From Macrostomum lignano (lineage: Eukaryota): DNA of 64,000 nucleotides. A program made the translations under genes and the position numbers. The notes under the pieces are model-generated. The model worked only from the letters and a program-made list of their open reading frames with translations. It had not been told where the DNA came from and made no database searches. Shown one piece after another: positions 24,701-60,469 of the stretch. The first letter of the stretch is position 1, and every line of letters begins with the position of its first letter. Where the stretch lies: the NCBI GenBank assembly GCA_002269645.1, contig NIVC01001639.1:192202-256201 (forward strand), in the 5' to 3' direction.

Positions 24701-27655
24701 CATTCATGGATGAAGGGATCTATGATCTAACTCCCTTAGTGCCTATATGGTAAGCACTGCTGACCATAGACAAATAATCCATTGTTGTGCTCCACACTAT
24801 AGTAACATACCTACGCTACGCCTCCTCTTTTTCACATAGTTATCAAGTGAATTATTTTCAAGACAAAAGATATCCTTCTTAGTGGACTTTTATGACCTCA
24901 GATGACAGTGATGCAGATCCGGGAACCAATCGGAGCATTCAATGACGTGAAGATCGTTCCATTGCTCTTCCCCCAATGCAGAGGCGAATTTCAGTCGGCT
25001 GGCCGAGCTGCGCAAAGTGGCGATATCGCAGGAGCTGCAGCAGAAGATCAGCAGACCGATGGGAGCGGCGGACAATCTAAGAAAAGTGGAACGAGGTGCG
25101 GAATTCTACGAATTTGTGTTTTTTGTCGTAAAATTATTGTGTCTCGTGGTTATTACGAGTATGTCTATAGGATTGCGTGTGTTTATGATTATTACAAGGG
25201 TGTCCAGGGTGATTATGAGTGTGTCCATGATGATTATGAATGTGTCCATGATGATTATGAGTGTGTCCATGATGATTATGAGTGTGTCCATGATGATTCT
25301 CAGCAAGTTCGAAAATTTATTATCGCAGAATCGGAGATCAAGTCTCTGACCTACCGGGACCCGGAGGTGGAGCAGGCTGAGAGGCTGTACGCCTCCGTCC
25401 AGTCCCAGCTGCGCGGCGGGCACTACGCAGGCTGCCAGGAGGGCAGGCAGCTGCCCGTGCACAAGCCAAATGCTGAAGCAACAGTCAAGGACCTCAATCC
25501 TGCCTGGCCAAAGACTCCGGCTCAGACTAATGCGCAGCAGCTGCCGAAAGCCACCGTGCCACAGGCCCCATTGCCTCAGCAGCAGCAGGTGCCACAGGCC
25601 CCATTGCCTCAGCAGCAGCAGGTGCCACAGGCCCCATTGCCTCAGCAGCAGCAGGTGCCACAGGCCCCATTGCCTCAGCAGCAGCAGGTGCCACAGGCCC
25701 CATTGCCTCAGCAGCAGCAGGTGCCACAGGCTCGATTGCCTCAGCAGCAGCAGGTGCCACAGGCCCCATTGCCTCAGCAGCAGCAGGTGCCACAGGCTCC
25801 ATTGCCTCAGCAGCAAGTACACCAGCCGCAACAACAGCAGCAGCAGCGGCTTCAGAGACAGCGACAAAGACCACAACCTCAGCAGCAGATGCAACCTCAG
25901 CAGCAGCAGATGCAACCTCAGCAGCAGCAGATGCAACCTCAGCAGCAGCAGATGCAACCTCAGCAGCAGCAGATGCAACCACAGCAGCAGCAGATGCAAC
26001 CACAGCAGCAGCAGATGCAACCTCAGCATCAGATGCAACCTCAGCATCAGATGCAACCTCAGCATCAGATGCAACCTCAGCATCAGATGCAACCTCAGCA
26101 TCAGATGCAACCTCAGCATCAGATGCAACCTCAGCATCAGATGCAACCTCAGCATCAGATGCAACCTCAGCAGCAGCAGATGAAACCACAACAGCAGCAG
26201 ATGCAACCACAACAGCAGCAGATGCAACCACAGCAGCAGCAGATGCAACCACAGCAGAAGATGCAACCACAGCAGAAGATGCAACCACAACAGCAGCAGA
26301 TGCAACCACAGCAGCAGCAGATGCAACCACAGCAGCAGCAGATGAAACCACAGCAGCAGCAGATGAAACCACAGCAGCAGCAGATGCAACCACAGCAGCA
26401 GCAGATGCAACCACAGCGGCAGCAGATGCAACCACAGCAGCAGCAGATGAAACCACAGCAGCAGCAGATGCAACCACAGCAGCAGCAGATGCAACCACAG
26501 CAGCAGCAGATGCAACCACAACAGCAGCAGATGCAACCACAGCAGCAGCAGATGCAACCACAACAGCAGCAGATGCAACCACAGCAGCAGCAGATGCAAC
26601 CACAAAAGCATCAGATCCATCTTCAGCCGCAGCAGCAGATGCAACCACATCAGCAGATGAAACCACAGCAGCAGCAGATGAAACCACAGCAGCAGCAGAT
26701 GAAACCACAGGAGCAGCAGATGCAACCACAGCAGCAGATGAAACCACAGGAGCAGCAGATGCAACCACAGCAGCAGATGCAACCACAGCAGCAGCAGATG
26801 CAACCACAGCGGCAGCAAATTCAGAGCCAAAATGCGGGAGCACAGCATCAGATTCAGCTGCATCAGCAGGCTCAGTTGCAGCCGCAAATGCAGAATCAGT
26901 TTGGGCAGTCCGCACAGCAAATGCCGCAGCATGCTCAACCAGCTTATCCGCAGCAACAGTCTCCAACAAAGGCATTGCAGAATCAAGCACCGACTGAGCA
27001 GCAATATCAAATGAAACAGAGCACTTCTCAGCTTCAGATGCAGCCAAAAAAGCAGTTGCAGCCCCAGCCCCAACAATCGAATCAGTGGTCGGAGACGCAG
27101 CAAACTGGTACTGGGCACACGACTGCGCAGATCTCGCAGGCTTCTTCGCAGCAGCAACCGCAGACACAGCAGTGGCGTCAGCCGCAGCAGCAGCAGCAGC
27201 AGCAACCTCAGACTCAGCAGTGGGGTCAGCCGCAGCAGCAGCAGCAACCACAGACTCAGCAGTGGGGTCAGCCGCAGCAGCAGCAGCAACCACAGACTCA
27301 GCAGTGGGGTCAGCCGCAGCAGCAGAAGCAGCCTCAGACTCAGCAGTGGGGTCAGCCGCAGCAGCAGCAGCCTCAGACTCAGCAGTGGGGTCAGGCGCAG
27401 CAGCAGCAGCAACCACAGACTCAGCAGTGGGGTCAGCCGCAGCAGCAGCAGCCTCAGACTCAGCAGTGGGGTCAGCCGCAGCAGCAGCAGCCTCAGACTC
27501 AGCAGTGGGGTCAGCGACAGCAGCAGCAGCAGCCTCAGACTCAGCAGTGGGGTCAGCCGCAGCAGCAGCAGCCTCAGACTCAGCAGTGGGGTCAGCCGCA
27601 GCAGCAGCAGCAGCCTCAGACTCAGCAGTGGGGTCAGCGACAGCAGAACCCATAG
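18758..27655 (+). CDS. Kettin/titin-like protein with 5 I-set Ig domains and a long Gln-rich tail, ~1532 aa; exons 18758-19007, 19661-19799, 20399-20812, 20898-21002, 21335-21881, 22215-22516, 23001-23214, 23563-23749, 24982-25095, 25329-27655
   Basis: Repeated I-set motifs (PPRF/PQF, WFKDG/WFKNG, D.G.Y.C.A.N) separated by kettin-type linkers (GVVTRTQLP...RLEE). Splice phases are consistent throughout (4599 nt) if intron 8 uses a GC donor at 23750. Further 5' exons are not excluded. Confidence 0.8.
19020..19510. repeat. 24-bp minisatellite (GAGGGTAGGGCATGGACTGGACCA)n in Ig-gene intron 1
   Basis: Tandem units start ~10 bp after the donor site. Confidence 0.95.
19985..20227 (-). mobile_element. 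tRNA-derived SINE
   Basis: The minus strand reads GGGGGTGCCGTAGCCCAGTGG (A box) and GGCTCAATTCC (B box). The body TTTGGGGCTGAATTGGAATCT...GGCCTTAAGGGCCAACCCC...AAGTGTACATGCCTAAC.ATAAATAAAGTTAGGGCCGCT matches the copy at 32834. Confidence 0.85.
22005..22128. repeat. Degenerate interstitial telomere-like (CCCTAA)n tract
   Basis: CCCTAA/CCCTAG variants inside an intron of the Ig gene. Confidence 0.8.
22595..22925. repeat. 27-bp minisatellite (CCTAGCCACACCCACCTCACTCCCCTG)n
   Basis: Tandem units in an intron. Confidence 0.9.
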
Positions 27656-46275: not shown

Positions 46276-47139
46276 TGATGTGTTCCTTATTACCCGACTT
46301 TCGATAATCAAGGAACAATCACTTCTAGCTCAACAGCTAGGCAACCCAGTAAGTCAAACGAAGGTATTCAATTACCTTTAATCCGGATTTGAATTTCTTG
46401 AGTAGTTCTCGCTAGGAACTTGTCAGTAGATCTCGTAGATCAGGCGCCTTGATTCTTCAGTTGCTCTGGTCCTGGTTCCTCTTGTACTTCCGATAAGTTC
46501 TTCCGGCCGGTATCTTCCGTCAGGACCAATCAGAGGCCTCGTAGCAACAATGGGTACCCTGCGCCAAACTGCGGTCTAAATTAAGCCTCCTTCTTCTAGC
46601 AGTGCCTCTATGCACTCTAGGTATAGCTCCGGAAACCACTGATAGTCCTCTAAGATCTATCAGGGGCAGTCCTTCTGGAGACTGCAACCAATGGAGTCTA
46701 AACAGACTCAAGAGTCTCAACAGACTCAATTAGACTCAAGTCTCAATAGACTTGAGCGAGACGTCTCTAACACAACGGGCGCAAATAAGGAAGGCTTACC
46801 GCAACAACTCGACCGAGTCTCGATTGACTTGGTAGATCAGGAAGTCCTCCTAAGGCTTCCTCTTCGGAGCGCTCCTCTTCCGTGGGGAGAATGGCTCCGG
46901 TACCGCTTCAGATCGCTTGTATTTATAGACAAGTTTTTGATCCAAAATAGTATCATGACAATTCACGTGTTGCGCTAAAAGGGGAAAATGGCTCATGGCG
47001 TATTATTCTGGTAACATCTTTTTCTGGTAGCGTGATTCATTCAAAGCTTAGGCGCACATGCGTGTACTTACTTACTTATAGTAGTATTATACGATTATCT
47101 TCTTTTTTCCTTTTTTAACGGGAGGTAGAACACTCTACA
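46276..47139 (-). repeat. 3' LTR (864 bp)
   Basis: Direct repeat of 57087-57950; no differences seen by eye, and both copies give identical ORF-track translations. Confidence 0.97.
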
Positions 47140-47142
47140 AAA

Positions 47143-47154
47143 TCTCCCTTTTTT
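47143..47154 (-). other. Polypurine tract AAAAAAGGGAGA
   Basis: Purine run 3 nt upstream of the 3' LTR on the element strand. Confidence 0.85.
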
Positions 47155-47381
47155 ACGAAAAAACTCGTCCCGAGTTTTAACAATGAAATAAAAATCTTGG
47201 GTAATTGAATTATTCCATACTTTAACTTTAAATTGGTTACATAATTCTCTTTATTAACATATATGCACGTAATATACATTGTGTGTTAATAAAGGTTAGT
47301 GGTGTTGAGTCCACGCTCAGTTAAAGTTAATCATGTCTTCTGCCGGGGATACCTGCTGTCCTCGCGCTGCTGCCGAGGCAT

Positions 47382-48014
47382 TCAGCCGAAGCTTGTCCTG
47401 AGCAGGCTGCTCACCTGATGCGTGGTTCGCGCCACCAGGGATGCCACTGCCCAGTACAGCGACTGAAACTTAGTGAATCGCGGATCCTCGGTCCGCTCCA
47501 GCAAAAGCAGATAGGCCTCTATGGTCGTAAGCGGTTCTGCTGTACGCACCATAGTCCTGGCGATGTCTAGTAACCACCGCCAGTCGGCCTGATGCTGAAG
47601 CGGCCATGGCCACGTTCGTACGGCGACGGCCAGCTGTTCCAGGGTTAGCTCATCCGGCTCCGCCAGCGTTAGCTCCGGTACGGCGAGCATCGGTGCCAGT
47701 AGTACGGATGCTGTGTTGGACAGCGGAGCCAGGCACACGGTGCACGTCATGATGTCTCGTGCACCGTACCGCTGAAGACAGCTGAAACACACCCAATGCC
47801 GATTTGAACAGAGTCGTACATTGGGCTGGTCGCCGCAAAGGGCACATTGGACCCGCGGTCTGCGACAGACGGGGCAGGCGGTAAGGATCGTCACGTCGCC
47901 AATTTCTCGCGCCCGCTCGTCGCAGGGGAAGCACACCTGGTGCCCCCATTCACAAGTCGGGAGCATCGGCTCCCGTGCCTCGAGGCAGCAGGGGCAGGTA
48001 TCCATCTCGGTCAT
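47382..48014 (-). CDS. Accessory double-RING protein B, 210 aa
   Basis: CPCC..C.WGH..C..C..CPVC followed by CALC..C..RH..C..C..CTVC gives two tandem RING-like Cys/His arrays. The ATG is directly preceded by CCCACAG, a possible splice acceptor. Confidence 0.8.
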   Translation of the reverse strand: MTEMDTCPCCLEAREPMLPTCEWGHQVCFPCDERAREIGDVTILTACPVCRRPRVQCALCGDQPNVRLCSNRHWVCFSCLQRYGARDIMTCTVCLAPLSNTASVLLAPMLAVPELTLAEPDELTLEQLAVAVRTWPWPLQHQADWRWLLDIARTMVRTAEPLTTIEAYLLLLERTEDPRFTKFQSLYWAVASLVARTTHQVSSLLRTSFG

Positions 48015-48084
48015 CTGTGGGCGATAGGTATAGGTATAGTTAGAATGATTGAGGATTATTCAAGATACGTAACAAGCATATGTT

Positions 48085-48753
48085 CTATCGGTGAGACCTA
48101 AAAAGCCAAATAAAATAGCTACGTGAGAGCACTAATCGTTTAAGCGCGTGGCAGTATACGTGTAGCGTCCAGTGAAATGATTCGTGGTCATGCAAAAACT
48201 GCCGCAACCGTCGCTCAATCTCCAAGGGTGACATATGACGCAAAAATCCTTGATTTCTATGAGCATATAATAGTAGCTGTCGTCGCGACCGCTGAACGAA
48301 GCGAGGTACAGGCCAAAACTCCAGCCGCCGTTCGATACTCATAGCGGTTAAGGTGTGCATAGTGTAAACGGATAAACAACGCGCTGGGTCAGGTATAATC
48401 CGACACCATTTCTTAAAAGTGTTTTCGCGGGGCATACTGTTACATAAGGGGCATCCTATAATGCCCCTACTAGCGGTTTGCTTCAAACAGTGCATGCAAA
48501 TAAAATGTTGGTGGTTACAATATTGAAACGTGCGCCAAGAATAACAATAGGCACATTGTCGCAAACTATCTCTACAGAGGGGACAACTCTGCCAGGGCTG
48601 AATATAGTGTGAATCACTTAAACATTGTCCGCAAACTTTATGTCCATTGATGCAAATAGTCGGTGGCTTGACAGCCAAGTCATCAGTTAAACATATCGGG
48701 CAGTCATATAGCTGCTGAGGCTGGGGCGCCTGTTTTGACAGTGCGTTGCCCAT
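48085..48753 (-). CDS. Accessory double-RING protein A, 222 aa, with N-terminal myristoylation motif
   Basis: The first ATG (48753) gives MGNALSK; the ORF-track start at 48765 is a TTG. CPIC..C.NGH..C..C..CPLC then CAYC..C..QH..C..C..CPLC; same layout as protein B. Confidence 0.8.
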   Translation of the reverse strand: MGNALSKQAPQPQQLYDCPICLTDDLAVKPPTICINGHKVCGQCLSDSHYIQPWQSCPLCRDSLRQCAYCYSWRTFQYCNHQHFICMHCLKQTASRGIIGCPLCNSMPRENTFKKWCRIIPDPARCLSVYTMHTLTAMSIERRLEFWPVPRFVQRSRRQLLLYAHRNQGFLRHMSPLEIERRLRQFLHDHESFHWTLHVYCHALKRLVLSRSYFIWLFRSHR

Positions 48754-48873
48754 AATTGTCGTCAATTTGTCGCTGTCTTTGTGTCGCTCGGATTAGTCGC
48801 CTTTTACGACAAGCTTGCGAAGCTGTAGTGCTATTCTTTATCCCGGTCACTACACGGGGTTGTTCTCTAAACT

Positions 48874-51800
48874 CTAGCGTGGTCGTAGGTTGTAGCCATG
48901 TGGCTGGCTCACATCTGTCGTTTGAGTCTCCTCGTGCTTCGTCGCGATGTGGCGGTTCGTTGAACGCGTGCGATCAGCGTTGTCTAATGTCGGTAGAAAC
49001 GTCGCTGTGTCAGTGTTGATCTTCTTTAGTCGATGAATGTGTACGTAGAACTGGTGCTGATGTGGATCTTGTACATTAGCCAGGCGTGCCGTTGTTGGTG
49101 ACGTTAGTTGGACCACTCGATAGGGTCCTTTGTACTTCTGTGCATGTTTATGCGTCTGCTGTGGCGGGTAGTGTAGGTAGACGATGTCGCCGGCCGTCAG
49201 GGTTGTCGATCTCGCGTCGTTGCCGGTGGTCAGAGCCACCTGGTTGTCAATGTTGTGCTTGGCGATCTTCCATGCGAGGTGTAGTTGCGTGACGAATTTC
49301 TGAATGGAAGTCGGTACTTCCACGTACTGCGATGGTAGCAATTGCTGTGCGAGCAGATTCGGCGGTTGGAAGTCTCGTCCAAACATTAGGAAGAATGGCG
49401 TATTGTCCGTTGATCGATGAATAGCGCTGTTGTAGGCCATTGTTACAGATTGCAGGTAGATGATCCAGTCTTCCGGCTGTTGGTGCGCGAAATGTGTAAT
49501 CATCTCGTGCAGGTTGCGGTGAAACCGTTCAACCATGTTTGCCTTCGGATTGTAGGTCGATGTGTAGATCTGCGTAATGTTGAGAATCCTTACGACTTGC
49601 TGAAACAGTTGCGATGTAAACTGCGATCCGTTGTCCGATGTGAGGTTCTTCGGCGTGCCGTACTTGCAAATGATTTCGTTGAAGAAACTCATTGCCACTG
49701 TCTGAGCTGTGATGTCCGGTATCGGTATGGCGATAGCAAACTTCGAGAAGATATCCAAGGCGGTTAGAATGTAGGTGTAGGCGATGCCCTGGAGACAGCT
49801 CGGTGGTAGCGGTCCGGTGATGTCGATGCTTAGACAGTCCATTGTAGTCGACTTCGGAATGGACTGTAGCTGCGGTTTCTGTCGTCGTCCTGTCTTTGAT
49901 GCAGCACATGAATGGCAGTTGTTGCAATACTGCTTGATGTCGCCGTACATAGTTGGCCAAAAGTAGTATTGTTCCACTCTCGCGATGGTCTTTGCTGCCG
50001 ACAGGTGTCCAGCGAGTGGGTTGTCGTGTAGCTCGTTGAGAATTGCTTGCCGAAACGAATATGGTATGTAGATCTTGGGTTTATTGTCGCTCATCCAGTA
50101 GAGCCGTGACTTATTGATTGTTAGGTGTTGTCGTTGCTTGCGTAGGAATTTTCGTTCCATGGGACTGAGTTTGATGTTCTTGTCGTCGTCTTTAACCGCT
50201 TGGTAGAAGTTGTCGCGCTCGGTTTCATCCACCAACTCCTTGATGTTAGGGATTGGATGAATGGCGTTGACTTCATAGGCTCTTGACAGGGCGTCCGCGG
50301 CTTTGTTGGTAATTCCTGGTTTGTAGACGAGTTTGTAGTTGTAATCCTGGATCTTGAGTGTCATTCTGATGAGTCGGTTGTTGGTCTGTCCTTTTGTAGT
50401 TACGACGTAGGTCAATGGTGCATGATCCGTGCGTACTATCGTCTGTATTGGAGAACCATAGATGTAGTAATGAAACTGTCGCAGGGCGAACAAGACTCCT
50501 AGTAGCTCTCGTTCCGTAGCTGACCACTTTGTTTCATTTGGTTTGAGTGCTCGACTGACGTAGGCAATAGGTCGTTCCTTCTTGTCCTCGGTTTCCTGTA
50601 GTAGGACTGCTCCGAGTCCCGTTCCTGAGGCGTCTGTCTCGATGATGAAGGGCTTGTCGAAGTCCGGATGCTGTAGCAGTGCGTCTGATGTCAGCTGTCG
50701 TTTGATTTCGTCGAAACTTTCCTGTTGTCTCTGTGTCCAGTTGTCTTGCTTCCATTTGTCGAACTTGAGCAGGTCGTACAGTGGCTTTGCTGTCTTTGCG
50801 AAGTTAGGTAAGAACTTCCTGAAGTATTGCGCAAGTCCAAGGAATGATTGGACCTTCGTTATACTGGTTGGCGTAGGAAACTTCTTCACCTTTTCCACGT
50901 TGTCTGGGTCCGGTGAGATTCCTTTGGCTGTCACCTGATGTCCCAGGTAACGCACGTTGTCTCGGAAGAATTTGCATTTAGTTGGTTGTAGCTTCAGACC
51001 TTGGCGTTGAATGAGCGCTAGGGCCTTCTCCGTAGCTTCGTAGAGTCGCTCGAAATCCTCTCCGTAGGCTAAAATGTCGTCGACATAGTGCAGCAGGTTC
51101 GTGCATCCTGCTAGCATGTATGCTGTTAGTCGACTCATCGTTGCTGGGCTGTTGCTAAGTCCCATCGGCGATCGATTGTACTCGTATACTTGTCCATTGT
51201 AGGTTTTGAAAGCCGTGTACTGTCGTGACTCTTTCTCGATTTCAATTTGCCAAAATCCATGACGTAGGTCGAACACCGTGAACAATTTTGCCGTGTTGAG
51301 CTTTGCTAGTAGTTCGGAGATCTTCGGTAGGCTTTGCTGATCCGTCGGTATGTACTTGTTCAACAGTCTGAAGTCGCATACGAGTCGTCTTTCGTTTGTC
51401 TCCTTCTTCTGTACCAGTAGGCACGGTGAGGAGTAAGCCGAAATAGCTTTGCTGATGATGCCGTGCTTTAGCATTTTATCGATGATTTCGTCAAAGTGTT
51501 GTTGCAGATGCTTGGCGATCGGGTACGGCTTGCACTGAATTGGTTCCGTGTGCGGCAGAAGTTTGATTTCCTGTTTGATGTCCTTGGCTCGTCCGATGTC
51601 GTAATCATGATGGCAGAAGGCTTCGTTGTACTTCCACAACAGCTGTCGAACTTTCCTCTTTTGCTGTTCCGTAATCGGGCTGTCATCCAAATTGATCTTC
51701 TTTTGAAATTCTTCCTCTGTTAGTCGTGGAGTCGCTTGTTCAATCAGCATAACCGATGCTTGGGTGTTGAGATGACCGATGCACATTCCTTGTCGTAGAT

Positions 51801-54800
51801 GAACCGTTTCTGTGTTCGGGTTGAAGATTTGTACTGGCAGTTGCTTATCCTTTGCAACCAGCACTAGTGCCGTAGGCATCATGATTTGATGTTTTGCCGT
51901 GACTCTCCTGTGTGGATCAAATATCATTGCTTCATCTGCCGCGCTGGTCGTTTTCGCTCTGACCCAGCATGCGCTTTCAGGCTGGATAATGACATCTTGC
52001 TGCAGAGTTACTTTCGGTAGTACTCGAATCTGGTTGATCAGCGGTTGCTCCACCGTGTCGATCCTAAACGTTTGCTTGTTGAAGTCGAAGGTCAATGGTA
52101 GTTGAAGCTGCTTGAACGTGTCGATTCCAACGATGACGTCTTGGTTTGGTAGTCTGTCGATGATGTACGTCGGGACCGTCAGCTGTTTATTAGCAATTTT
52201 CAAGTCGATATCTGCTTTTCCTAGGATGTTGAGTGAATGTCCTCCTGCTCCTGCAACTGCGATTGCTGCTGGTCGTACCGCGAGTCGTAGCTTGTTGCAT
52301 AATTGTTGCGAGATGACTGTGATCGAGCTGCCTGAATCCAGTAGTGCTCGACATGGCAAGTTGTTGACAATGACCTGAGCCATTGCTTTGCCAATCTCGG
52401 CGTGTAGCGTACAGACGTAGTTTTCCGGCCATTTTGGCTCGTGCTGTTCTGCTTGATAGTTGGGTGGTTGTATCCTTGGTGCCGTTGGTGTTGTCGGAAT
52501 CGATGGATATAGCCGCGTTGCTAGTGTCGGTTGCCCTTGAACCTCACAATGTGCAGTTTCTGTTAGTTCTAAACTGTTGTCGCTTTCCGTTGTCGTTCTT
52601 TGCATTATGGCATTCACTGTCTTCTTAGCTCTTGGACAAGTTTGACTGAAGCACCGTACGATCGATGAAATGATGAAGATTGCCGTGACAATCCACACAA
52701 TGCAAGCACCGTAGAAGATGAATCCTTGATAGAGACTGCCTCTTCCATTGAGCAGCTCCCAGAAGCTATTTGTCCAAAATGATTTGATGGCGCTGTCCAT
52801 TGAAACAAGGACGGGAAATCTTCCTGTCCCGGTTCCTTTGTCCTTTCTTGTGAACAGCTGGTGAATCATCTTGCGTTGGGTGATGAACGCTTGCAAGAAG
52901 TCGTTGATCGTCCATCCTGGTGTTATCTCGTCAAGTTGGATATCGGCGAATGGCGTATACTTCGTTCTGTTGAATCGGATTTTCAAATCCTCCATGTCGT
53001 AGTTTTCGTCGACGATTACTTCCGGTTCTGTGACGTTTGCTGTCGTTCCAGTTGTTTTGATGACGTGTAGTGCATTGTCCAGTTGATAGTAGTTTACTGC
53101 CGTGGTGCAAGGTCTCGGTATTGCGGTGCCAACGATGATGTTGTGTACCGTGTCCAAGAATCCCTGAATTCGTTTTCCTTCGTAGAACGCTTCAATCCTT
53201 GGCTTATCGTAGCAGGTTGTTGACGTGTTTGACGGCAAGATGTTAAAGTGCTGTATCGGCGTGCACTTGTATATCAACAGATGCTCGTATATTGGAACTG
53301 CCAAAACGTTCGTCATTCCGGTGATTTTACGAAAAGTCATCGTAGGGTTGACATAGTAGTTTTGTCTGGCATAATTTAAGTTGATTGCGTGCATTTTGCA
53401 AGTTAGCTGGACCAGTGTTCGATGCAAGTGGTTTAACTGGTTGTGTAGATTGTGATCCAAAGCCGTTATCTTTGCTGACAACAGCCGGTTTGACACCAGT
53501 TTGGGACGTTCGATGTCACGTCGTCTTCTATTCTGTTTTTCTTGTTGCTGATACGTTCCATTGATGATTGCCAAGAAGGTTTGTTTGTCTTCATCCTTTA
53601 CGTAGACTGGTATCTCTTGTTCCGAGATGAATAGTGTCTTGTCTGTATCCTTGCATTTCAGTTTTTGCTCGACTGGTTTCTTTTGAAACGTCAGTGCCAA
53701 GTCTCCTGACTTTGCCAAAAACGTATTTGACAGTAGTCCTCCTTCAACTGTGTGATACTTTTGAAGCTTGCAGTCAATTTCCGGCTCAACTTCCCACGCG
53801 AAGAAGTATTGTCGTGATTTGTACGGTTCCTCATAGTGTGATTGTGCTCTGTGCTCAATCTGCCATCGATAGTCTTGATGATATGTTGGACTCAGTGGTA
53901 GACTGTGTAGTTCTTCCTTCCGTAGAATCGGCGTTGGACACCATCCTTCACTGTATCGACATTCGCTTAGTTGCAGCTGTAACGATTCCATTTTCTCGTA
54001 CGGATTGTAGTAGAATGGAATATTTCTGATCAAGTAGCTGTTGCGTGCCATATATTCTTTCCATTTTCCGAAGAAGTGAATATATCGACCGTTGGCTGAA
54101 TTCTTTGTTCTGAACAGCTGTGCGTTGCCGACCTTCTCATCTGGTTCCAGTTCACCATCCTTTGAAAATAGTGTTTGATTCCATTGTAGGCATTCCGCGT
54201 GCGACACATGTAGCTCATGTTGTTTAAATCGGATCCGGTTCCATTGTCCGCGCCAAACTTTTTCCACCAGGTGCTTGTCTCTGAAGCATACTATCCCGTG
54301 TTGTCGATGCTTCTTGATGTTAGCCTTGTAGAGATCGAGTGTAATCTTCTTTGGTTTTGTCTGGTTTGTCTTGAAGTAACTGCATTTGATGTCGGTTGGT
54401 ATCTTGTAGATCATCGGTTGGATATGCGCATCCGTTGGACAAATCATTGGCTTTTCCGTTGCCGTTGCTTTGGCGACTACTGCTATCAGTAGTATCACGA
54501 TGATCCAGAATAGCCAGTTTTTCCACTTCTTGGATTTTGCCGTTGTCCTTGCTGGCATTGGCTGCGATCGCCATTCGTTATCTTCCATGTCCGCATCATA
54601 TTCTTTCGGTTGTTCCATTGGCTGATCCAGGCGGAAGGCTTCTGATTCGCTTTGCTTTTTGGTTATTTCATTATCTTCGTCTGCGGCTTCTTCCGATGTT
54701 TCCGTTGTTTCACTCCATTGCGTTTGGTATCTTTTCTCTGTCTTGTAGTCGACCGTTTGAATATAGGCTTCACCATTTCGTTTGTATCGGATCTCGTAGC

Positions 54801-56370
54801 ATTCGTCGCTGTCGGAACTCGGCTTTTCTTTCACCTGTTCTTTTTCCATTTCTTCATCTTTCCATTGTATTTCGTAGCCTTGATCGCTGTCGGAACTTAG
54901 ATTCTCCGCTCTCGGTTCTTCCTGCATTCCTCTTTCGGCTTGGTAGTCGTTCGTGTCATCACGCACCTCGCAGTCGTGGTCGTTGCCGTAACTTCTACAT
55001 TCTTCTTCTTCTTTCATTTCTTTGTCTTTCATGCTCGTTTTGTCGTCATCCACTGTTGTCGATTCATAGTTGTTTTCTTCGCCGGTTTTCATCTTTTCTT
55101 CGTTGCCGATGTCGCTCTCCGCCTCCTCCCTTGTCTTGTGATTTACTTTCTTCCTGTTTTCTCTGCTGTCTCCGGTGGTCTCTTTTAATTTGATCATTTC
55201 GGTTTCATTCGTCTCTTCTGTGTTGTCAGTGTTGTCCTCGTGCGTCGTCTTCTTTTCGATCAAGCTGATGTCAAGTTCCGGGACTGTGAAGTCCATTTCC
55301 AAGTCGTCAATTGTGAACACTTGCTGTTCTTGCTGTTCATTTTCCGGTGTGTACGTGATGGCATTCGCGTATCGTGGCATTGCTTGCGTCGGCTGTCTTT
55401 GTGTGTATCTGACGTTGCGTGGCCTGTAGCCATTACTTCTGAAGCGGCCTTCGTTTCCGAAGCGGCCATCATTTCCGGAGCGGTCATTATTTCCGAAGCG
55501 TCTATCATTTCCGAAGCGTCTCATTCCTTGTTGTTGGCGATTTTGATAGTGCTGCCATGGTTTCTGCGGCTTCTGATTGTTGAATATCTGTCGCGGCTTG
55601 TCGTATCTTGTTGACCAATGAGGACAATTAATCTGATAATGTCCTTCTTGTCCGCAGTAGTAACATCTGGCTGAGGCTTGTTCATTTCGTCTTTTTTGTT
55701 CGGCGATAGCAGCTGTCTGGTGCTGCATTAACTTGTTTAGTTGCTGCGTCAGTTTCTGCACTTCATTGTTGCCTGTCGTCATTAATGGGGCACTGGCTTC
55801 CCATTGCATTCCGCAACGCAAAAGGTCTTCTTCGGTTTCGATATTTTCACGCAAAAGTCTATCCCGAAGTGACGGCTGTGCGTTGTTTATTACGTGCAGG
55901 ATGAGGTTTTGTTCACGATCCATCAATCGTTGTCTTTCTCTGGCGGCCAATTCTGCCGCTCCCAGTGGTGGTTGGTCCGCAGCTTGCAGCGGTGGCTGAT
56001 GCAGTGCCTTAATTATCTGGCGGATATCGTCCACAAAGGCGAGGAAGGATTCTGTTGCTTGCATCCTTCTGTTATGCAACTTGTGCAGCAGCACTGATCT
56101 GTTTGTGCCGCAACGGTTGAAATGCGCGCGCAGTTGAATGATTAGTGCTGGATAATTTTGCTGTGTTGCCGCATCCAGCTTGCCGTAAATTTCTCGCGCA
56201 GTACCTTGGAGAAGAGGTGGCAGCAGCTGTGCCTTCTCTGGATTTTGTAGGTTGTATTCCCTACATACCAGGTCAAAATGGTCGACAAATGTGTTAAAAT
56301 CTTTCTCCATCGAGAAAGTACCGACCGTTTCTTTGATGTCTCTGTGTACCGTTGGATTGCGCCGCGCCAT
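48874..56370 (-). CDS. Gag-Env-Pol polyprotein, 2498 aa
   Basis: Gag with CCHC knuckle CYYCGQEGHYQINC (55624-55665); hydrophobic signal WLFWIIVILLIAVVAKATA (~54461-54517); Cys-rich ectodomain with N-glycosylation sequons and furin-like RRRR (53518-53529); TM segment (~52660-52725); protease LLDSGS (~52327-52344); RT YVDD (51076-51087); RNase H TDASGTGLGAVL; integrase HHCC, DDE and GPY motifs. Confidence 0.95.
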   Translation of the reverse strand: MARRNPTVHRDIKETVGTFSMEKDFNTFVDHFDLVCREYNLQNPEKAQLLPPLLQGTAREIYGKLDAATQQNYPALIIQLRAHFNRCGTNRSVLLHKLHNRRMQATESFLAFVDDIRQIIKALHQPPLQAADQPPLGAAELAARERQRLMDREQNLILHVINNAQPSLRDRLLRENIETEEDLLRCGMQWEASAPLMTTGNNEVQKLTQQLNKLMQHQTAAIAEQKRRNEQASARCYYCGQEGHYQINCPHWSTRYDKPRQIFNNQKPQKPWQHYQNRQQQGMRRFGNDRRFGNNDRSGNDGRFGNEGRFRSNGYRPRNVRYTQRQPTQAMPRYANAITYTPENEQQEQQVFTIDDLEMDFTVPELDISLIEKKTTHEDNTDNTEETNETEMIKLKETTGDSRENRKKVNHKTREEAESDIGNEEKMKTGEENNYESTTVDDDKTSMKDKEMKEEEECRSYGNDHDCEVRDDTNDYQAERGMQEEPRAENLSSDSDQGYEIQWKDEEMEKEQVKEKPSSDSDECYEIRYKRNGEAYIQTVDYKTEKRYQTQWSETTETSEEAADEDNEITKKQSESEAFRLDQPMEQPKEYDADMEDNEWRSQPMPARTTAKSKKWKNWLFWIIVILLIAVVAKATATEKPMICPTDAHIQPMIYKIPTDIKCSYFKTNQTKPKKITLDLYKANIKKHRQHGIVCFRDKHLVEKVWRGQWNRIRFKQHELHVSHAECLQWNQTLFSKDGELEPDEKVGNAQLFRTKNSANGRYIHFFGKWKEYMARNSYLIRNIPFYYNPYEKMESLQLQLSECRYSEGWCPTPILRKEELHSLPLSPTYHQDYRWQIEHRAQSHYEEPYKSRQYFFAWEVEPEIDCKLQKYHTVEGGLLSNTFLAKSGDLALTFQKKPVEQKLKCKDTDKTLFISEQEIPVYVKDEDKQTFLAIINGTYQQQEKQNRRRRDIERPKLVSNRLLSAKITALDHNLHNQLNHLHRTLVQLTCKMHAINLNYARQNYYVNPTMTFRKITGMTNVLAVPIYEHLLIYKCTPIQHFNILPSNTSTTCYDKPRIEAFYEGKRIQGFLDTVHNIIVGTAIPRPCTTAVNYYQLDNALHVIKTTGTTANVTEPEVIVDENYDMEDLKIRFNRTKYTPFADIQLDEITPGWTINDFLQAFITQRKMIHQLFTRKDKGTGTGRFPVLVSMDSAIKSFWTNSFWELLNGRGSLYQGFIFYGACIVWIVTAIFIISSIVRCFSQTCPRAKKTVNAIMQRTTTESDNSLELTETAHCEVQGQPTLATRLYPSIPTTPTAPRIQPPNYQAEQHEPKWPENYVCTLHAEIGKAMAQVIVNNLPCRALLDSGSSITVISQQLCNKLRLAVRPAAIAVAGAGGHSLNILGKADIDLKIANKQLTVPTYIIDRLPNQDVIVGIDTFKQLQLPLTFDFNKQTFRIDTVEQPLINQIRVLPKVTLQQDVIIQPESACWVRAKTTSAADEAMIFDPHRRVTAKHQIMMPTALVLVAKDKQLPVQIFNPNTETVHLRQGMCIGHLNTQASVMLIEQATPRLTEEEFQKKINLDDSPITEQQKRKVRQLLWKYNEAFCHHDYDIGRAKDIKQEIKLLPHTEPIQCKPYPIAKHLQQHFDEIIDKMLKHGIISKAISAYSSPCLLVQKKETNERRLVCDFRLLNKYIPTDQQSLPKISELLAKLNTAKLFTVFDLRHGFWQIEIEKESRQYTAFKTYNGQVYEYNRSPMGLSNSPATMSRLTAYMLAGCTNLLHYVDDILAYGEDFERLYEATEKALALIQRQGLKLQPTKCKFFRDNVRYLGHQVTAKGISPDPDNVEKVKKFPTPTSITKVQSFLGLAQYFRKFLPNFAKTAKPLYDLLKFDKWKQDNWTQRQQESFDEIKRQLTSDALLQHPDFDKPFIIETDASGTGLGAVLLQETEDKKERPIAYVSRALKPNETKWSATERELLGVLFALRQFHYYIYGSPIQTIVRTDHAPLTYVVTTKGQTNNRLIRMTLKIQDYNYKLVYKPGITNKAADALSRAYEVNAIHPIPNIKELVDETERDNFYQAVKDDDKNIKLSPMERKFLRKQRQHLTINKSRLYWMSDNKPKIYIPYSFRQAILNELHDNPLAGHLSAAKTIARVEQYYFWPTMYGDIKQYCNNCHSCAASKTGRRQKPQLQSIPKSTTMDCLSIDITGPLPPSCLQGIAYTYILTALDIFSKFAIAIPIPDITAQTVAMSFFNEIICKYGTPKNLTSDNGSQFTSQLFQQVVRILNITQIYTSTYNPKANMVERFHRNLHEMITHFAHQQPEDWIIYLQSVTMAYNSAIHRSTDNTPFFLMFGRDFQPPNLLAQQLLPSQYVEVPTSIQKFVTQLHLAWKIAKHNIDNQVALTTGNDARSTTLTAGDIVYLHYPPQQTHKHAQKYKGPYRVVQLTSPTTARLANVQDPHQHQFYVHIHRLKKINTDTATFLPTLDNADRTRSTNRHIATKHEETQTTDVSQPHGYNLRPR

Positions 56371-57066
56371 GTTGTTGATAGGGTAGAACGGTAGTTCAAG
56401 ATCTGGATCGATTTGTAACGGATCGTCCAGTGTGGTGTTTGCCTCGGAATAAACCTCGACTGTAACGAATTGCCTTGTGGTGTCGATTTGTTATTCGCTG
56501 GCCTCGGATGCGGTGTGGCTTGCTGCCACTGGTTGTCCTCAAATGAACTTGTTCTGTTCGCTTGCTGATTTCGCACTTATGCGGCGTCCCGCAAAGTGTA
56601 TCTTCAAGTTGAAGTGGACTTGTCTTCTTGCTTTGCAAAGTCTTTCTTCTCTTCTTTGACTCTCTCTCTTTTGTCAATTAACTCTGCTCTCCACGAAGTT
56701 TCAATTAATTTCGGTTTTGTTTTAGTTTTTGTGCCGGCAAAATGTTTCAGTTATTTTTTGTTTGTTTTGCGTCGACGATTCTTTTTATTTTTGGTTTGTT
56801 TTCAGTGTACCGACGAAGTTAATTTCGGTTTTGTTTTAAACTCACACTTGCTCGAGCTCGTCAAAACAAAATTTTAACACGCGTGCTCAAACTGTACTCA
56901 AATTTGACAGGTGCTCAAACCTGTACACCAAATTTTACTCGAGTTTCAAAACGTAACGGACTTAAAAAGTGTTAACTCTAACACGTGCGCGCAAAATTAA
57001 TGAAGTCGCTCTGTCGTCACTTTACAATAGCTTGGCCAGGCTATTGCTCAAGGTTTGAGTAGTGCC

Positions 57067-57084
57067 GAGAGGGCGAGATCACCA
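57067..57084 (-). other. Primer-binding site TGGTGATCTCGCCCTCTC (tRNA-Trp-like by its TGGTGA start; assignment tentative)
   Basis: TGG begins 2 nt after the 5' LTR on the element strand. Confidence 0.75.
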
Positions 57085-57086
57085 AT

Positions 57087-57950
57087 TGATGTGTTCCTTA
57101 TTACCCGACTTTCGATAATCAAGGAACAATCACTTCTAGCTCAACAGCTAGGCAACCCAGTAAGTCAAACGAAGGTATTCAATTACCTTTAATCCGGATT
57201 TGAATTTCTTGAGTAGTTCTCGCTAGGAACTTGTCAGTAGATCTCGTAGATCAGGCGCCTTGATTCTTCAGTTGCTCTGGTCCTGGTTCCTCTTGTACTT
57301 CCGATAAGTTCTTCCGGCCGGTATCTTCCGTCAGGACCAATCAGAGGCCTCGTAGCAACAATGGGTACCCTGCGCCAAACTGCGGTCTAAATTAAGCCTC
57401 CTTCTTCTAGCAGTGCCTCTATGCACTCTAGGTATAGCTCCGGAAACCACTGATAGTCCTCTAAGATCTATCAGGGGCAGTCCTTCTGGAGACTGCAACC
57501 AATGGAGTCTAAACAGACTCAAGAGTCTCAACAGACTCAATTAGACTCAAGTCTCAATAGACTTGAGCGAGACGTCTCTAACACAACGGGCGCAAATAAG
57601 GAAGGCTTACCGCAACAACTCGACCGAGTCTCGATTGACTTGGTAGATCAGGAAGTCCTCCTAAGGCTTCCTCTTCGGAGCGCTCCTCTTCCGTGGGGAG
57701 AATGGCTCCGGTACCGCTTCAGATCGCTTGTATTTATAGACAAGTTTTTGATCCAAAATAGTATCATGACAATTCACGTGTTGCGCTAAAAGGGGAAAAT
57801 GGCTCATGGCGTATTATTCTGGTAACATCTTTTTCTGGTAGCGTGATTCATTCAAAGCTTAGGCGCACATGCGTGTACTTACTTACTTATAGTAGTATTA
57901 TACGATTATCTTCTTTTTTCCTTTTTTAACGGGAGGTAGAACACTCTACA
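57087..57950 (-). repeat. 5' LTR (864 bp)
   Basis: Reads TGTAGAGTG...CACATCA on the element strand; repeat of 46276-47139. Confidence 0.97.
57732..57738 (-). promoter_or_regulatory. Candidate LTR TATA box (TATAAAT)
   Basis: Motif ~210 nt into the 5' LTR on the element strand; positional plausibility only. Confidence 0.4.
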
Positions 57951-58696
57951 ATATATAGCGCCTGCGGCACCAAACACGAGTTCCTGCAGCGCAAAAAATG
58001 CCTGCGACGCCAAATGAGCGCTGACAACACCGATTCTAAAAATAATGTAAAATGTTAAAATGTATAATTCTTGCGGCTTAATTTGTTCCCCACCATAAAA
58101 TCAATCTTGTGACGCCCCTGCCACAACAGTACATGTAACTCACAAACCTTCTGTCGTAAATGCACATGCAAGTCGTATATAGCCAGTAGAAGTGACTAAA
58201 AAGAGAATCAAAGTTGTAGATGGGGTTGGTACATGTTTGTTAGCCCGACAAACGACGAGAGTGTAGGCCTGAAGCCATAACCATGCCTAGACTCATTCGT
58301 CTTTTTCTCTTTTGATTTCCATTTACCTTAAGATATTGAGTTTAAATACTTTTAGTATTTTTAACATTAATTTACTTGCACTTCTTATTCATACAGCGAA
58401 AATATTTTTACTTCCTTTTAAATATTAGTTGACGTATGCTCCGGTATCTGAGGCTTACTCTATGTTTCAAGTAAATAATTGTCGTAAAACACGAAAATGT
58501 TCATGTATTACTACCACATTAAAGACAGTGTTGCCTAGCCAATCAACAGCCGCCATGCAAAACACGCTACGAATTTCAACTTAAATGCGTCAACCGAAAG
58601 AAATCTAGATATTTCTTTACCAATTCCCCTCCTCGTATTTTGCGCTAGTGTGTTGTCCTGTTAAAACTATATTTTGATTGAAATTCTTACGTTAAT

Positions 58697-60469
58697 ATGT
58701 GGCTGTCGAGCTTTTTGGCATTTGCTCTGCTTGCTCTCGCATGCGGTGAAGTTTACTTCAAGGAGGAGTTTTTAGATGGTAAGTTAGTTCTCGCTCTGAC
58801 GTTTATTTTGTTTAGATTCTCAAATTCCCTTGTGTTGCTGCAATACTAGAATAGGGCATTGTCTTGTTGGTTTTCTTCATTTCAACCATATCAGAATATT
58901 AAAGTAACTAAAAATAGTATTGAAATCATTCCATTCTTTTTAACTTTGCACATTCAAGCAGTTAAAATAACCCCCTTGTGTTAGCTTTGCATTTTGTTCT
59001 AAAAGAATAAACTGTGGTTACTGGTTTACTTTTTTATAGTTTTTGAAAGATAATTCATTAAAAAGGCTTCTATTATTGAGTATGAGAGAGAAAGGAAGTA
59101 TAGGTTTCTAGCTAGCTACTTTAATTTAATTGTAACATATTATAAGATTGTTTTATAACTTCACAATTTTTTTGTTTCCTTAAAGACTATTTGTATATAT
59201 ATATATTGCCTATCTTTACATTTTTCTATGTTTCTCCTAATGTAAAATCCTTTGATTTAAATATTTATTTTTTTCTTTTAATTTTAATTATATGCTTTGC
59301 TAATTTGTCTTCACAAAATATTTATTTCAGAGTCATGGAAGGATCGGTGGGTAGAGTCAACCTACAAGGGTAATGACCAAGGCAAATGGGAATGGACTGC
59401 TGGCAAGTTCTACAATGATGCTGAAAAGGACAAGGGAATAAAAACCTCCCAGGATGCCAAATTTTATGGCATCAGTGCCAAGTTCAACTCTCCATTCTCC
59501 AATGCTGGCAAGACTCTGGTGATCCAATTCCAGGTCAAGCATGAGCAGAACATTGACTGCGGTGGTGGCTATGTCAAAGTCCTTGGCAGCGATGTTGACC
59601 AGAAGAACTTCCACGGCGACACACCCTACAAGATCATGTTTGGTCCTGATATCTGCGGCCCTGGCACTAAGAAGGTGCACGTTATCTTCAACTACAAGGG
59701 CAAGAATTTGCTCACCAAGAAGGAGATTCGCTGCAAGGATGACGAGCTAAGCCACCTGTACACCCTGATTGTGAAGCCTGACAACACCTACGAGGTGCTG
59801 ATTGACAACGAGCGAGCCGAAGGTGGAGAACTCGAGGCCGACTGGGACTTCCTGCCACCCAAGAAGATCAAGGATCCGGCCGCCAAGAAGCCAGACGACT
59901 GGGACGAGCGCGAGAAAATTGACGACCCGAACGACAAGAAGCCGGAGGACTGGGACAAGCCCAAGACCATCCCGGATCCCAAGGCCAAGAAGCCGGACGA
60001 CTGGGACGACGAGATGGACGGCGAATGGGAGCCGCCGATGATTGACAACCCGGACTACAAGGGCGACTGGAAGCCCAAGCAGATTGACAACCCGGCCTAC
60101 AAGGGCAAGTGGATCCACCCGGAGATTGACAACCCGGACTACTCGCCGGACCCCGAGCTGTACAAGTACACCGACATCGGCGCCATCGGCTTCGACCTGT
60201 GGCAGGTGAAATCTGGCTCCATCTTCGACAACGTCTTCGTTGGCGACGACCCGGCCGAGGCCAAGGCCTTCGCCGACGAGACCTTCAAGAAGACCGTCGA
60301 AGGCGAGAAGAAGATGAAGGAGAAGCAGGACGAGGAGGACAAGAAGAAGGCGGAGGAAGAGGAGAAGAAGCGCAAAGAGGAGGAGGAGAAGAAGAAGGCC
60401 GAGGAGGGCGACAAGAAGGAAGCGGACAAGAAGGAGGACGACAAGAAGGACACCAAGGACGAGCTGTAG
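58697..60469 (+). CDS. CALR: Calreticulin, 406 aa; exons 58697-58778 and 59331-60469
   Basis: Signal peptide MWLSSFLAFALLALACG, then EVYFKEEF. Motifs KHEQNIDCGGGYVK and IMFGPDICG; P-domain repeats (KPDDWD, GEWEPPMIDNPDYKG); acidic tail ending KDEL; phase-1 GT-AG intron. Confidence 0.97.

What the first reader, a model, noticed from the sequence alone, without database searches (positions are those of the whole stretch)
48733..48753. RING protein A starts with a myristoylation signal, like an arenavirus Z-type matrix protein
The first ATG gives M-G-N-A-L-S-K, matching the N-myristoyltransferase consensus (Gly2, Ser6, Lys7). The element's Gag starts MARRNP and has no such signal. Arenavirus Z is a small myristoylated RING protein that acts as matrix and drives budding. 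By analogy (not homology), protein A could be a separately encoded matrix or membrane adaptor complementing the late domains on the Env tail.
Basis: partly seen in the sequence, partly recalled or inferred. Interest (0 to 1): 0.7.

Follow-up and report, generated by a model that had tools for sequence, protein, structure and literature searches.

The report
Retroelement RING protein with lipid-anchor motif
A virus-like jumping gene, probably from a flatworm, carries an extra double zinc-finger protein that begins with a convincing fat-attachment signal, but its relatives lack that signal and it looks more like a ubiquitin-tagging enzyme than the virus shell protein it was compared with.

Summary
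ORF A (48753-48085, minus strand, 222 aa) starts M-G-N-A-L-S-K in a strong start context, with no earlier in-frame ATG. It is the only MGxxx[ST][KR] start among 1095 distinct ATG-octapeptides in the window (chance about 0.05-0.6% per start). ORF A lies in an intact Gag-Env-Pol LTR element whose LTR length and primer site match a published Macrostomum lignano errantivirus.

The Z-type matrix reading is not supported. 0 of 6 related double-RING units, including paralogue B next door, have Gly2, while all 16 zinc ligands are kept. A has two RINGs plus a helical domain and no late domain. RING1 keeps the E3 linchpin Arg in 7 of 7 units and matches cellular ligases far better than Z. A non-myristoylated Gag is normal for gypsy, and here Gag is joined to Env's first membrane helix.

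Best reading: an accessory RING E3 ligase that gained a lineage-specific myristoyl anchor. Conservation across true copies of A could not be tested. The host's AUG-ending spliced leader offers a possible start without Gly2.

The parts
48733..48753 (-). N-terminal motif of protein A, M-G-N-A-L-S-K (candidate N-myristoylation signal)
48706..48732 (-). Gln/Pro-rich linker (aa 8-16), which makes A's arm 9-13 residues longer than in relatives; holds four in-frame CAG codons (8, 11, 13, 14) that could serve as splice acceptors
48085..48753 (-). ORF A, 222 aa: RING1-RING2-helical domain; no membrane helix, no late domain
48571..48702 (-). RING1 of A (aa 18-61), C3HC4 with C-x3-H spacing; Pro58 and linchpin-position Arg61 invariant in the family
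48442..48555 (-). RING2 of A (aa 67-104); all 8 ligands kept, linchpin position variable
48091..48426 (-). C-terminal helical domain of A (aa 110-221), basic; no Pfam family, no clear fold match
47382..48014 (-). ORF B, 210 aa, paralogue of A (25% identity, E 1e-13); starts M-T-E-M-D with no upstream in-frame ATG; strong acceptor (branch-like CTAAC, 72% pyrimidines, CAG) directly before its ATG
48874..56370 (-). Single 2498-aa Gag-Env-PR-RT-RNaseH-IN ORF; Gag starts MARRNP
54457..54513 (-). Membrane helix 1 (aa 620-638) between Gag and the Env ectodomain, preceded by a Lys/Trp patch
52669..52725 (-). Membrane helix 2 (aa 1216-1234), end of the Env ectodomain
52456..52512 (-). Late-domain cluster (LYPSI-like, PTAP, PPNY; aa 1287-1305) in the tail between helix 2 and the protease
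   Evidence: both PTAP and PPxY in 5 of 200000 random 95-mers
57087..57950 (-). 5' LTR, 864 bp, TG...CA; donor-like sites with first intron base at 57610 and 57186
46276..47139 (-). 3' LTR, 864 of 864 bases identical to the 5' LTR; ATAT target-site duplication
57073..57084 (-). Primer-binding site; its 12-nt complement equals the one listed for Mlig_errantivirus_2
56371..57732 (-). 1362-nt leader from the TATA box to the Gag start without a single ATG
   Evidence: mean 14.2 in 2000 shuffles, none with zero

Best explanation
Protein A is one of two paralogous accessory proteins (A and B) encoded behind pol in an intact gB-type Gag-Env-Pol errantivirus-like element. The family core is RING1-RING2-helical domain. 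RING1 most likely works as a ubiquitin E3 (binding E2~ubiquitin), and RING2 and the helical domain as scaffold or substrate binder. A is probably translated from a sub-genomic mRNA that has an ATG-free leader, so it starts at the first ATG, 48753. Its initiator Met is removed and Gly2 is myristoylated by the host enzyme. The anchor is a lineage-specific addition that sends this one paralogue to membranes, where it ubiquitinates a membrane-near host or element protein, as the cellular myristoylated ligase ZNRF2 does. It is not the structural matrix. Shown: motif, domain layout, ligand and Arg conservation, absence of Gly2 in relatives, ATG-free leader. Inferred: expression, start site, lipidation, ligase activity, substrate.
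For: All 16 Cys/His ligands plus Pro58 and Arg61 are invariant in 6 aligned proteins. The RING1 linchpin position is Arg in 7 of 7 units, and Arg in 0 of 7 RING2s. The linchpin role is from PMC12326332; its place right after the last Cys is recalled and agrees with the TRIM21 and SIAH1 alignments. Best PDB sequence matches are TRIM21 (E 8.7e-6), SIAH1 (1.9e-5) and RING2. The RING hits of the fold searches are cellular and large-DNA-virus RING proteins, none at E 0.001 or better. Motif quality and rarity; the Lys7 salt bridge in NMT is described in PMC7048800. Start at M1: no ATG in the 1362-nt leader, every AG between 48875 and 48774 has 48753 as its first downstream ATG, and the next in-frame ATG (M87) lies beyond RING1. 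Precedent: ZNRF2 is a myristoyl-tethered RING E3 (PMC4889327). Extra ORFs behind pol expressed from spliced messages occur in rotifer LTR elements (PMC5408684).
Against: No copy or close orthologue of A was found (best hit 39% identity), so selection on Gly2 is untested. Gly2 is absent in 0 of 6 relatives, which fits an accidental motif equally well. There is no polybasic or Cys second signal: 2 Lys/Arg in the first 30 residues. Acceptors upstream of A are weak (28-56% pyrimidines, against 72% for B), so how A is expressed is unclear. Pfam RING scores are below curated cut-offs. E3 activity is inferred from sequence only.
Confidence: 0.5

Rival explanations
1. The motif is incidental. A is a cytosolic or nuclear double-RING accessory protein like its relatives, and its N-terminus drifted into a myristoylation-like sequence that is not selected, whether or not the enzyme modifies it.
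For: 0 of 6 relatives have Gly2. The loose motif has a 3-7% chance of turning up once among 7 units. There is no second membrane signal. The family N-terminus already carries Ile/Leu-Ser/Asn-Lys/Pro-like residues in the aligned columns, so few changes are needed.
Against: The full Gly2-Asn3-Ser6-Lys7 pattern is rare: 1 of 1095, 0.05% by composition. It comes with a longer polar, disordered linker of the kind lipid anchors need (the linker requirement is recalled).
Confidence: 0.27
2. Translation starts elsewhere. If the host is M. lignano, its spliced leader ends in AUG. Trans-splicing onto one of the in-frame CAG codons 8, 11, 13 or 14 would give an N-terminus without Gly2, with the first Cys at position 11, 8, 6 or 5, which is the family-typical length (5-9).
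For: The leader sequence ends in ATG and about 30% of genes are trans-spliced, with operon gaps peaking near 100 bp (PMC8629364). The flatworm leader AUG can initiate translation (PMC9851317). The four acceptors are in frame. The gaps pol-A and A-B are 120 and 70 nt.
Against: None of the four sites fits the [T/C]TNCAG motif enriched at M. lignano trans-splice sites. The only such site between 49200 and 47990 is upstream (first exon base 48822) and would leave M1 intact behind a 10-codon upstream ORF. CAG is simply the common Gln codon. M1 has a strong context.
Confidence: 0.1
3. One reading: A is a separately encoded, myristoylated matrix or membrane adaptor like arenavirus Z. It lines the envelope and links capsid to the Env tail that carries the late domains.
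For: Motif, RING and a disordered N-terminal arm are shared with Z in outline. Gag has no Gly2. The late-domain cluster shows that the element buds or did bud. A's C-terminal domain is basic, with 21 Lys/Arg against 8 Asp/Glu. In Z, binding to the glycoprotein needs the myristate but not the late domains.
Against: All mammarenavirus Z proteins depend on Gly2 (PMC11658702; PMC3509680), whereas 0 of 6 relatives of A have it. A has no P[TS]AP, PPxY or YxxL. Z matches the family profile only at E 0.08, rank 53 of 56. Gypsy Gag is not myristoylated either. Gag here is continuous with membrane helix 1, and Pol with helix 2. The published sibling appears to have only about 681 nt between pol and the 3' LTR against 1734 here, too short for A or B with their present spacers (from coordinates only, and supply in trans is possible).
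Confidence: 0.07

Closest known systems
Mlig_errantivirus_2 and the GAG-ENV-POL HSV/gB-type errantiviruses (Chary and Hayashi, PMC13524379)
   Same: ORF order; Env between two membrane helices; LTR of 864 bp (863-864 listed); same 12-nt primer site at the same offset; LTR start to pol stop 9077 here against about 9046.
   Different: The listed copy is about 1.08 kb shorter, almost all of it behind pol. The main text has no occurrence of 'RING', 'myristoyl' or 'accessory'. Identity with that element rests on these numbers, not on a sequence alignment.
Myristoylated cellular RING E3 ligases (ZNRF2, PMC4889327; RNF125, RNF11 and MGRN1 recalled)
   Same: N-terminal Gly motif plus a RING with E3 hallmarks; membrane tethering of a ligase.
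   Different: No orthology shown. A has tandem RINGs at the N-terminus and an unassigned helical domain, and the motif is not conserved in its family.
Arenavirus Z (PMC3509680)
   Same: Gly2 motif on a disordered arm ahead of a C3HC4 RING.
   Different: Z has about 99 residues, one RING, conserved myristoylation and its own late domains. A has 222 residues, two RINGs, no late domains and a non-conserved Gly2.
sORF2/FAST-like proteins of insect MDG1-group LTR elements (bioRxiv 10.1101/2025.03.14.642691)
   Same: A small extra ORF of an LTR element with an MGxxxS/T motif, present in some members (4 of 6) and not in others. A myristoylation motif on a retrotransposon accessory protein therefore has precedent.
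   Different: sORF2 proteins are single-pass membrane fusogens. A has no membrane helix (best 19-residue hydropathy 0.74) and is a zinc-finger protein.
Extra ORF3s of bdelloid rotifer LTR elements (PMC5408684)
   Same: Captured cellular-type domains behind pol, expressed from spliced messages.
   Different: Those are GDSL, DEDDy or membrane proteins; 'RING' does not occur in that text.

Membership tests
Arenavirus Z-type matrix protein | N-terminal myristoylation signal on a disordered arm | tested here: met
   Motif; pLDDT under 50 for residues 1-12. Sequence level only.
Arenavirus Z-type matrix protein | Myristoylation signal conserved across the family | tested here: not met
   0 of 6 homologous units. 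True copies of A were not available, and four of the six starts are as called by the database.
Arenavirus Z-type matrix protein | One central RING with short flexible arms, about 99 aa | tested here: not met
   Two RINGs plus a 110-aa helical domain, 222 aa.
Arenavirus Z-type matrix protein | Own late domains (P[T/S]AP, PPxY, YxxL) | tested here: not met
   None in A; definition.
Arenavirus Z-type matrix protein | Sequence or fold relationship beyond a generic RING | tested here: inconclusive
   Chain 7x6v_B ('RING finger protein Z'; arenaviral origin recalled) at E 0.08, rank 53 of 56.
Arenavirus Z-type matrix protein | Drives particle budding; binds glycoprotein and nucleocapsid | not testable with these tools
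RING E3 ubiquitin ligase | Eight zinc ligands in C3HC4 order | tested here: met
   Both RINGs, invariant in 6 of 6 aligned proteins. Pfam scores are below cut-off.
RING E3 ubiquitin ligase | Cationic linchpin after the last ligand | tested here: met
   RING1: Arg in 7 of 7. RING2: Arg in 0 of 7, Lys in 1.
RING E3 ubiquitin ligase | E2 binding and ubiquitin transfer | not testable with these tools
   Biochemical assay needed.
N-myristoyltransferase substrate | Gly2 after Met, permitted residue 3, Ser/Thr6, Lys7 | tested here: met
   MGxxxS/T rule, Lys7; the PROSITE-type pattern was recalled.
N-myristoyltransferase substrate | Gly2 is the real N-terminus in vivo | tested here: inconclusive
   Favoured; the spliced-leader AUG route is not excluded; no transcript data.
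GAG-ENV-POL gB-type errantivirus | Gag, Env, Pol order inside paired LTRs with a primer site | tested here: met
GAG-ENV-POL gB-type errantivirus | Env of gB type | tested here: inconclusive
   PF24664 (viral fusion glycoprotein) E 8.2e-6, 24.5 bits, under the 27-bit cut-off; no PDB sequence match; not folded.
sORF2/FAST-like fusogen | Single membrane helix with a basic patch behind it | tested here: not met
   No hydrophobic helix in A.

The most novel reading that the evidence does not exclude
This LTR element has split the retroviral matrix and budding job three ways: a Gag without matrix, late domains on the Env tail, and a separately encoded myristoylated RING protein. That protein sits at budding sites, is packaged, and either lines the envelope like arenavirus Z or ubiquitinates the Env tail and ESCRT factors as the element's own budding ligase. 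Other lineages would reach the membrane without Gly2, for example through a partner.
Probability: 0.1. Interest if true: 0.8.

Novelty: new variant of a known kind. Interest (0 to 1): 0.36.

Why it matters
How envelope-bearing Ty3/gypsy elements reach and bud from membranes without a myristoylated matrix is open; a 2012 review says their use of ESCRT is not known. A myristoylated RING protein that filled that role would be a striking convergence with arenaviruses. The evidence points to something more modest but still not found in the papers searched: a recently active element, probably from a flatworm, carrying two paralogous double-RING proteins that look like ubiquitin ligases, one of which has gained a membrane anchor. 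That would be a retrotransposon-encoded counterpart of the membrane-targeted ligases that large viruses use against host defences, in a host with transgenic tools. The myristoylation motif is a secondary, lineage-specific feature of that cassette.

Tried and rejected
Searches for copies or orthologues of A: the word-based search found none of 93 candidates at E 0.001 or better. The profile search returned only P0005 among 1114 candidates, and the P0003 search only itself among 48. Longer and shorter length classes were not searched. No second copy exists in the window. No match in 50,697 phage records. Viral and metagenome contig collections stayed unchecked, and no eukaryotic genome collection was on hand, so conservation across copies is open.

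Of the 8 hits, three (P0008-P0010) matched only through generic RING stretches and were dropped before the count; none of them starts with MG either.

The family tree has long-branch warnings and only 1 of 4 inner branches well supported, so it cannot say whether Gly2 was gained or lost.

Fold searches with the A model and the B model gave no match at E 0.001 or better and no Z of 8 or more. No arenavirus Z appears among the rows shown, which is no evidence that the folds differ. MIT domains (ULK3, Z 5.9, rmsd 2.4, 75 aligned; calpain-7, Z 5.0, rmsd 2.5, 67 aligned) tie with unrelated three-helix bundles for B's C-terminal domain and are not in the top 50 for A, so they were rejected as evidence. 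The helical domain was not folded alone.

Read-through from pol into A was rejected: A is in the same frame but several stops lie in the 120-nt gap. No heat-shock element was found in the LTR. PMC8689648 gave nothing on the motif. A look-up of the calreticulin acceptor failed and its printed line was ignored.

Cluster membership, the ESM Atlas and complex prediction (A with B) gave no answer, so source names for most hits and any binding prediction are missing.

Full report
Observation. Window 48753-48733 on the minus strand encodes M-G-N-A-L-S-K and opens a 222-aa ORF, protein A. No in-frame ATG lies upstream of it before the stop, and its context is acaattATGg. Among 1095 distinct ATG-octapeptides on both strands of the window, 52 start MG, 7 fit MGxxx[ST], and only protein A fits MGxxx[ST][KR]. 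Nulls from the element's own residue composition give 0.42% and 0.053%. Allowing for several looks, the loose motif would appear once among 3 ORFs in 1.3-2.9% of cases and once among 7 family units in 3-7%; the strict motif in about 0.4% among 7. The strict pattern was fixed after seeing the sequence. Lys7 is the residue that makes a specific salt bridge in human NMT1 (PMC7048800, passages). In the model of A, residues 1-12 are disordered. The long ORF starts MARRNP.

Setting. A lies in a minus-strand LTR element at 46276-57950 with LTRs identical at 864 of 864 bases and an ATAT target duplication, so the insertion is recent. One 2498-aa ORF carries a zinc knuckle, an Env-like region, protease, RT, RNase H and integrase. 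The Env region lies between two membrane helices (aa 620-638 and 1216-1234), has a furin-like site and 6 sequons, and scores E 8.2e-6 to the fusion-glycoprotein family PF24664, below its cut-off. Chary and Hayashi describe this GAG-ENV-POL order with gB-type Env in flatworms, nematodes and bryozoans (PMC13524379; abstract, first parts of two Results sections, a Methods section, passages and supplement rows). Their row Mlig_errantivirus_2 (Macrostomum lignano, 16 copies) has the same LTR length and the same 12-nt primer site at the same offset. I infer that the host is M. lignano and the element this one or a close sibling; no alignment was possible.

What protein A is. A has two tandem C3HC4 domains and a helical C-terminal domain (mean pLDDT 84). 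ORF B, 70 nt downstream, is a paralogue with 25% identity and E 1e-13. A scan of 1.84 billion cluster representatives gave 8 hits. Five share the whole double-RING layout; three matched only generic RING stretches and were dropped. All 16 zinc ligands, Pro58 and Arg61 are invariant in the six aligned proteins. The position after the last Cys is Arg in 7 of 7 RING1 units and in 0 of 7 RING2 units. An Arg linchpin stabilises E2~ubiquitin in RING ligases (PMC12326332, passages; its exact position is recalled and agrees with the TRIM21 and SIAH1 alignments). The family profile matches TRIM21, SIAH1 and RING2 at E about 1e-5 to 1e-4, and the chain named 'RING finger protein Z' at E 0.08, rank 53 of 56. 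This favours an E3 ligase with RING1 as the catalytic half. Against it, Pfam RING scores stay below cut-off, fold searches give nothing at E 0.001 or better, and no activity is shown.

Conservation of Gly2. None of 6 homologous units has Gly at position 2: protein B, P0003 (the closest, 39%), P0005, P0006, P0007 and the second unit of P0004. Their first Cys falls at position 5-9, against 18 in A, so A has a longer Gln/Pro-rich arm. B's start is checked in the window. The starts of P0003, P0005, P0006 and P0007 are as the database gives them, and that of the P0004 unit is read from an apparent exon junction; three of them have the first Cys at exactly position 9, which suggests real starts. These relatives are at most about 40% identical, so this shows that the anchor is not a family property. 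It does not show that it is unselected in A's own lineage. No copy of A was found, and the tree cannot polarise gain or loss.

Is M1 the start? The 1362 bases from the TATA box to the Gag ATG hold no ATG (mean 14.2 in 2000 shuffles, none with zero), which points to first-AUG scanning. Donor-like sites lie at 57610 and 57186 in the LTR, and the unnamed protein P0004 joins LTR-derived stretches ending near 57610 to B-type units, as a spliced gene model would. B has a strong acceptor right at its ATG. For A, every AG from 48875 to 48774 has 48753 as its first downstream ATG, and the next in-frame ATG is M87, beyond RING1. These acceptors are weak, however. The M. lignano spliced leader ends in ATG (PMC8629364, passages), and the flatworm leader AUG can initiate (PMC9851317, passages). 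Four in-frame CAG codons inside A's arm would then give a start without Gly2 and of family length. None fits the host's [T/C]TNCAG trans-splice motif, and the one upstream site that does leaves M1 intact. I rate this route at about 0.1.

The matrix analogy. Z proteins share conserved myristoylation, one central RING and their own late domains (PMC3509680, passages and section 3.1; PMC11658702 and PMC11436053, passages). A fails conservation, size and layout, and late domains. But the gap the matrix would fill is doubtful. Gypsy Gag is not myristoylated (PMC3383448, passages), and in this polyprotein Gag is continuous with membrane helix 1 and Pol with helix 2, so both would be tethered to membrane as they are made (inference). 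The published sibling seems to have about 681 nt between pol and the 3' LTR against 1734 here, too little for A or B with their present spacers; this rests on coordinates, and supply in trans is possible.

Mechanism. Most likely (0.5), A is an accessory E3 ligase made from a sub-genomic mRNA, myristoylated at Gly2 and thereby placed on membranes, like ZNRF2 (PMC4889327, passages), while B acts without an anchor. Next (0.27), the motif is incidental. Then a start elsewhere (0.1) and a Z-type matrix (0.07).

Novelty. Extra ORFs behind pol are known from rotifers (PMC5408684, passages). I found no paper on RING ORFs in these elements in the search listings. 'RING' does not occur in the main text of PMC13524379 or PMC12801592 (first part, passages and supplement 1 seen). 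Its supplements 2-5, all figures, subscription journals, the earlier M. lignano LTR classification paper and repeat databases were not seen and could hold an annotation. Verdict: a new variant of a known kind. The motif is real and probably usable, the matrix reading is unlikely, and the interest is 0.36.

Noticed in passing
window 52456-52512 (-): LYPSI-like, PTAP and PPNY motifs clustered within 19 residues between Env helix 2 and the protease; both PTAP and PPxY occur in 5 of 200000 random 95-mers. Probably a stronger budding lead than the myristoylation motif.
   Followed up: partly
window 56371-57732 (-): 1362-nt leader with no ATG on the sense strand (10 on the other strand; mean 14.2 expected).
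   Followed up: partly
window 47140-48873 (-): The published Mlig_errantivirus_2 coordinates imply about 681 nt here instead of 1734, so the RING cassette may be deleted in some copies.
   Followed up: partly
protein P0004: Unnamed 660-aa protein that joins LTR-derived stretches to a unit nearly identical to protein B and to a second B-like paralogue, with no Gag or Pol; may reflect spliced transcripts or LTR-flanked RING-only elements.
   Followed up: partly
window 47382-47654 (-), C-terminal domain of B: Predicted three-helix bundle; MIT domains of ULK3 and calpain-7 are among tied weak fold hits (Z 5.9 and 5.0). Generic at that score, but MIT domains bind ESCRT-III (recalled).
   Followed up: partly
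window 48754-48873 and 48015-48084: Gaps of 120 and 70 nt between pol, A and B resemble the roughly 100-bp operon spacing reported for M. lignano.
   Followed up: no
window 55429-55518: Four to five 18-nt repeats in the region behind the Gag zinc knuckle, encoding RFGND-type units.
   Followed up: no
window 58696-60469 (+): Calreticulin gene (Pfam E 1.5e-85) about 0.75 kb beyond the 5' LTR, transcribed away from it.
   Followed up: no
window 24902-27655 (+): 917-codon ORF through a 21/18-nt repeat encoding Gln-rich units; many other minisatellite arrays at 1-38 kb and 62-64 kb.
   Followed up: no
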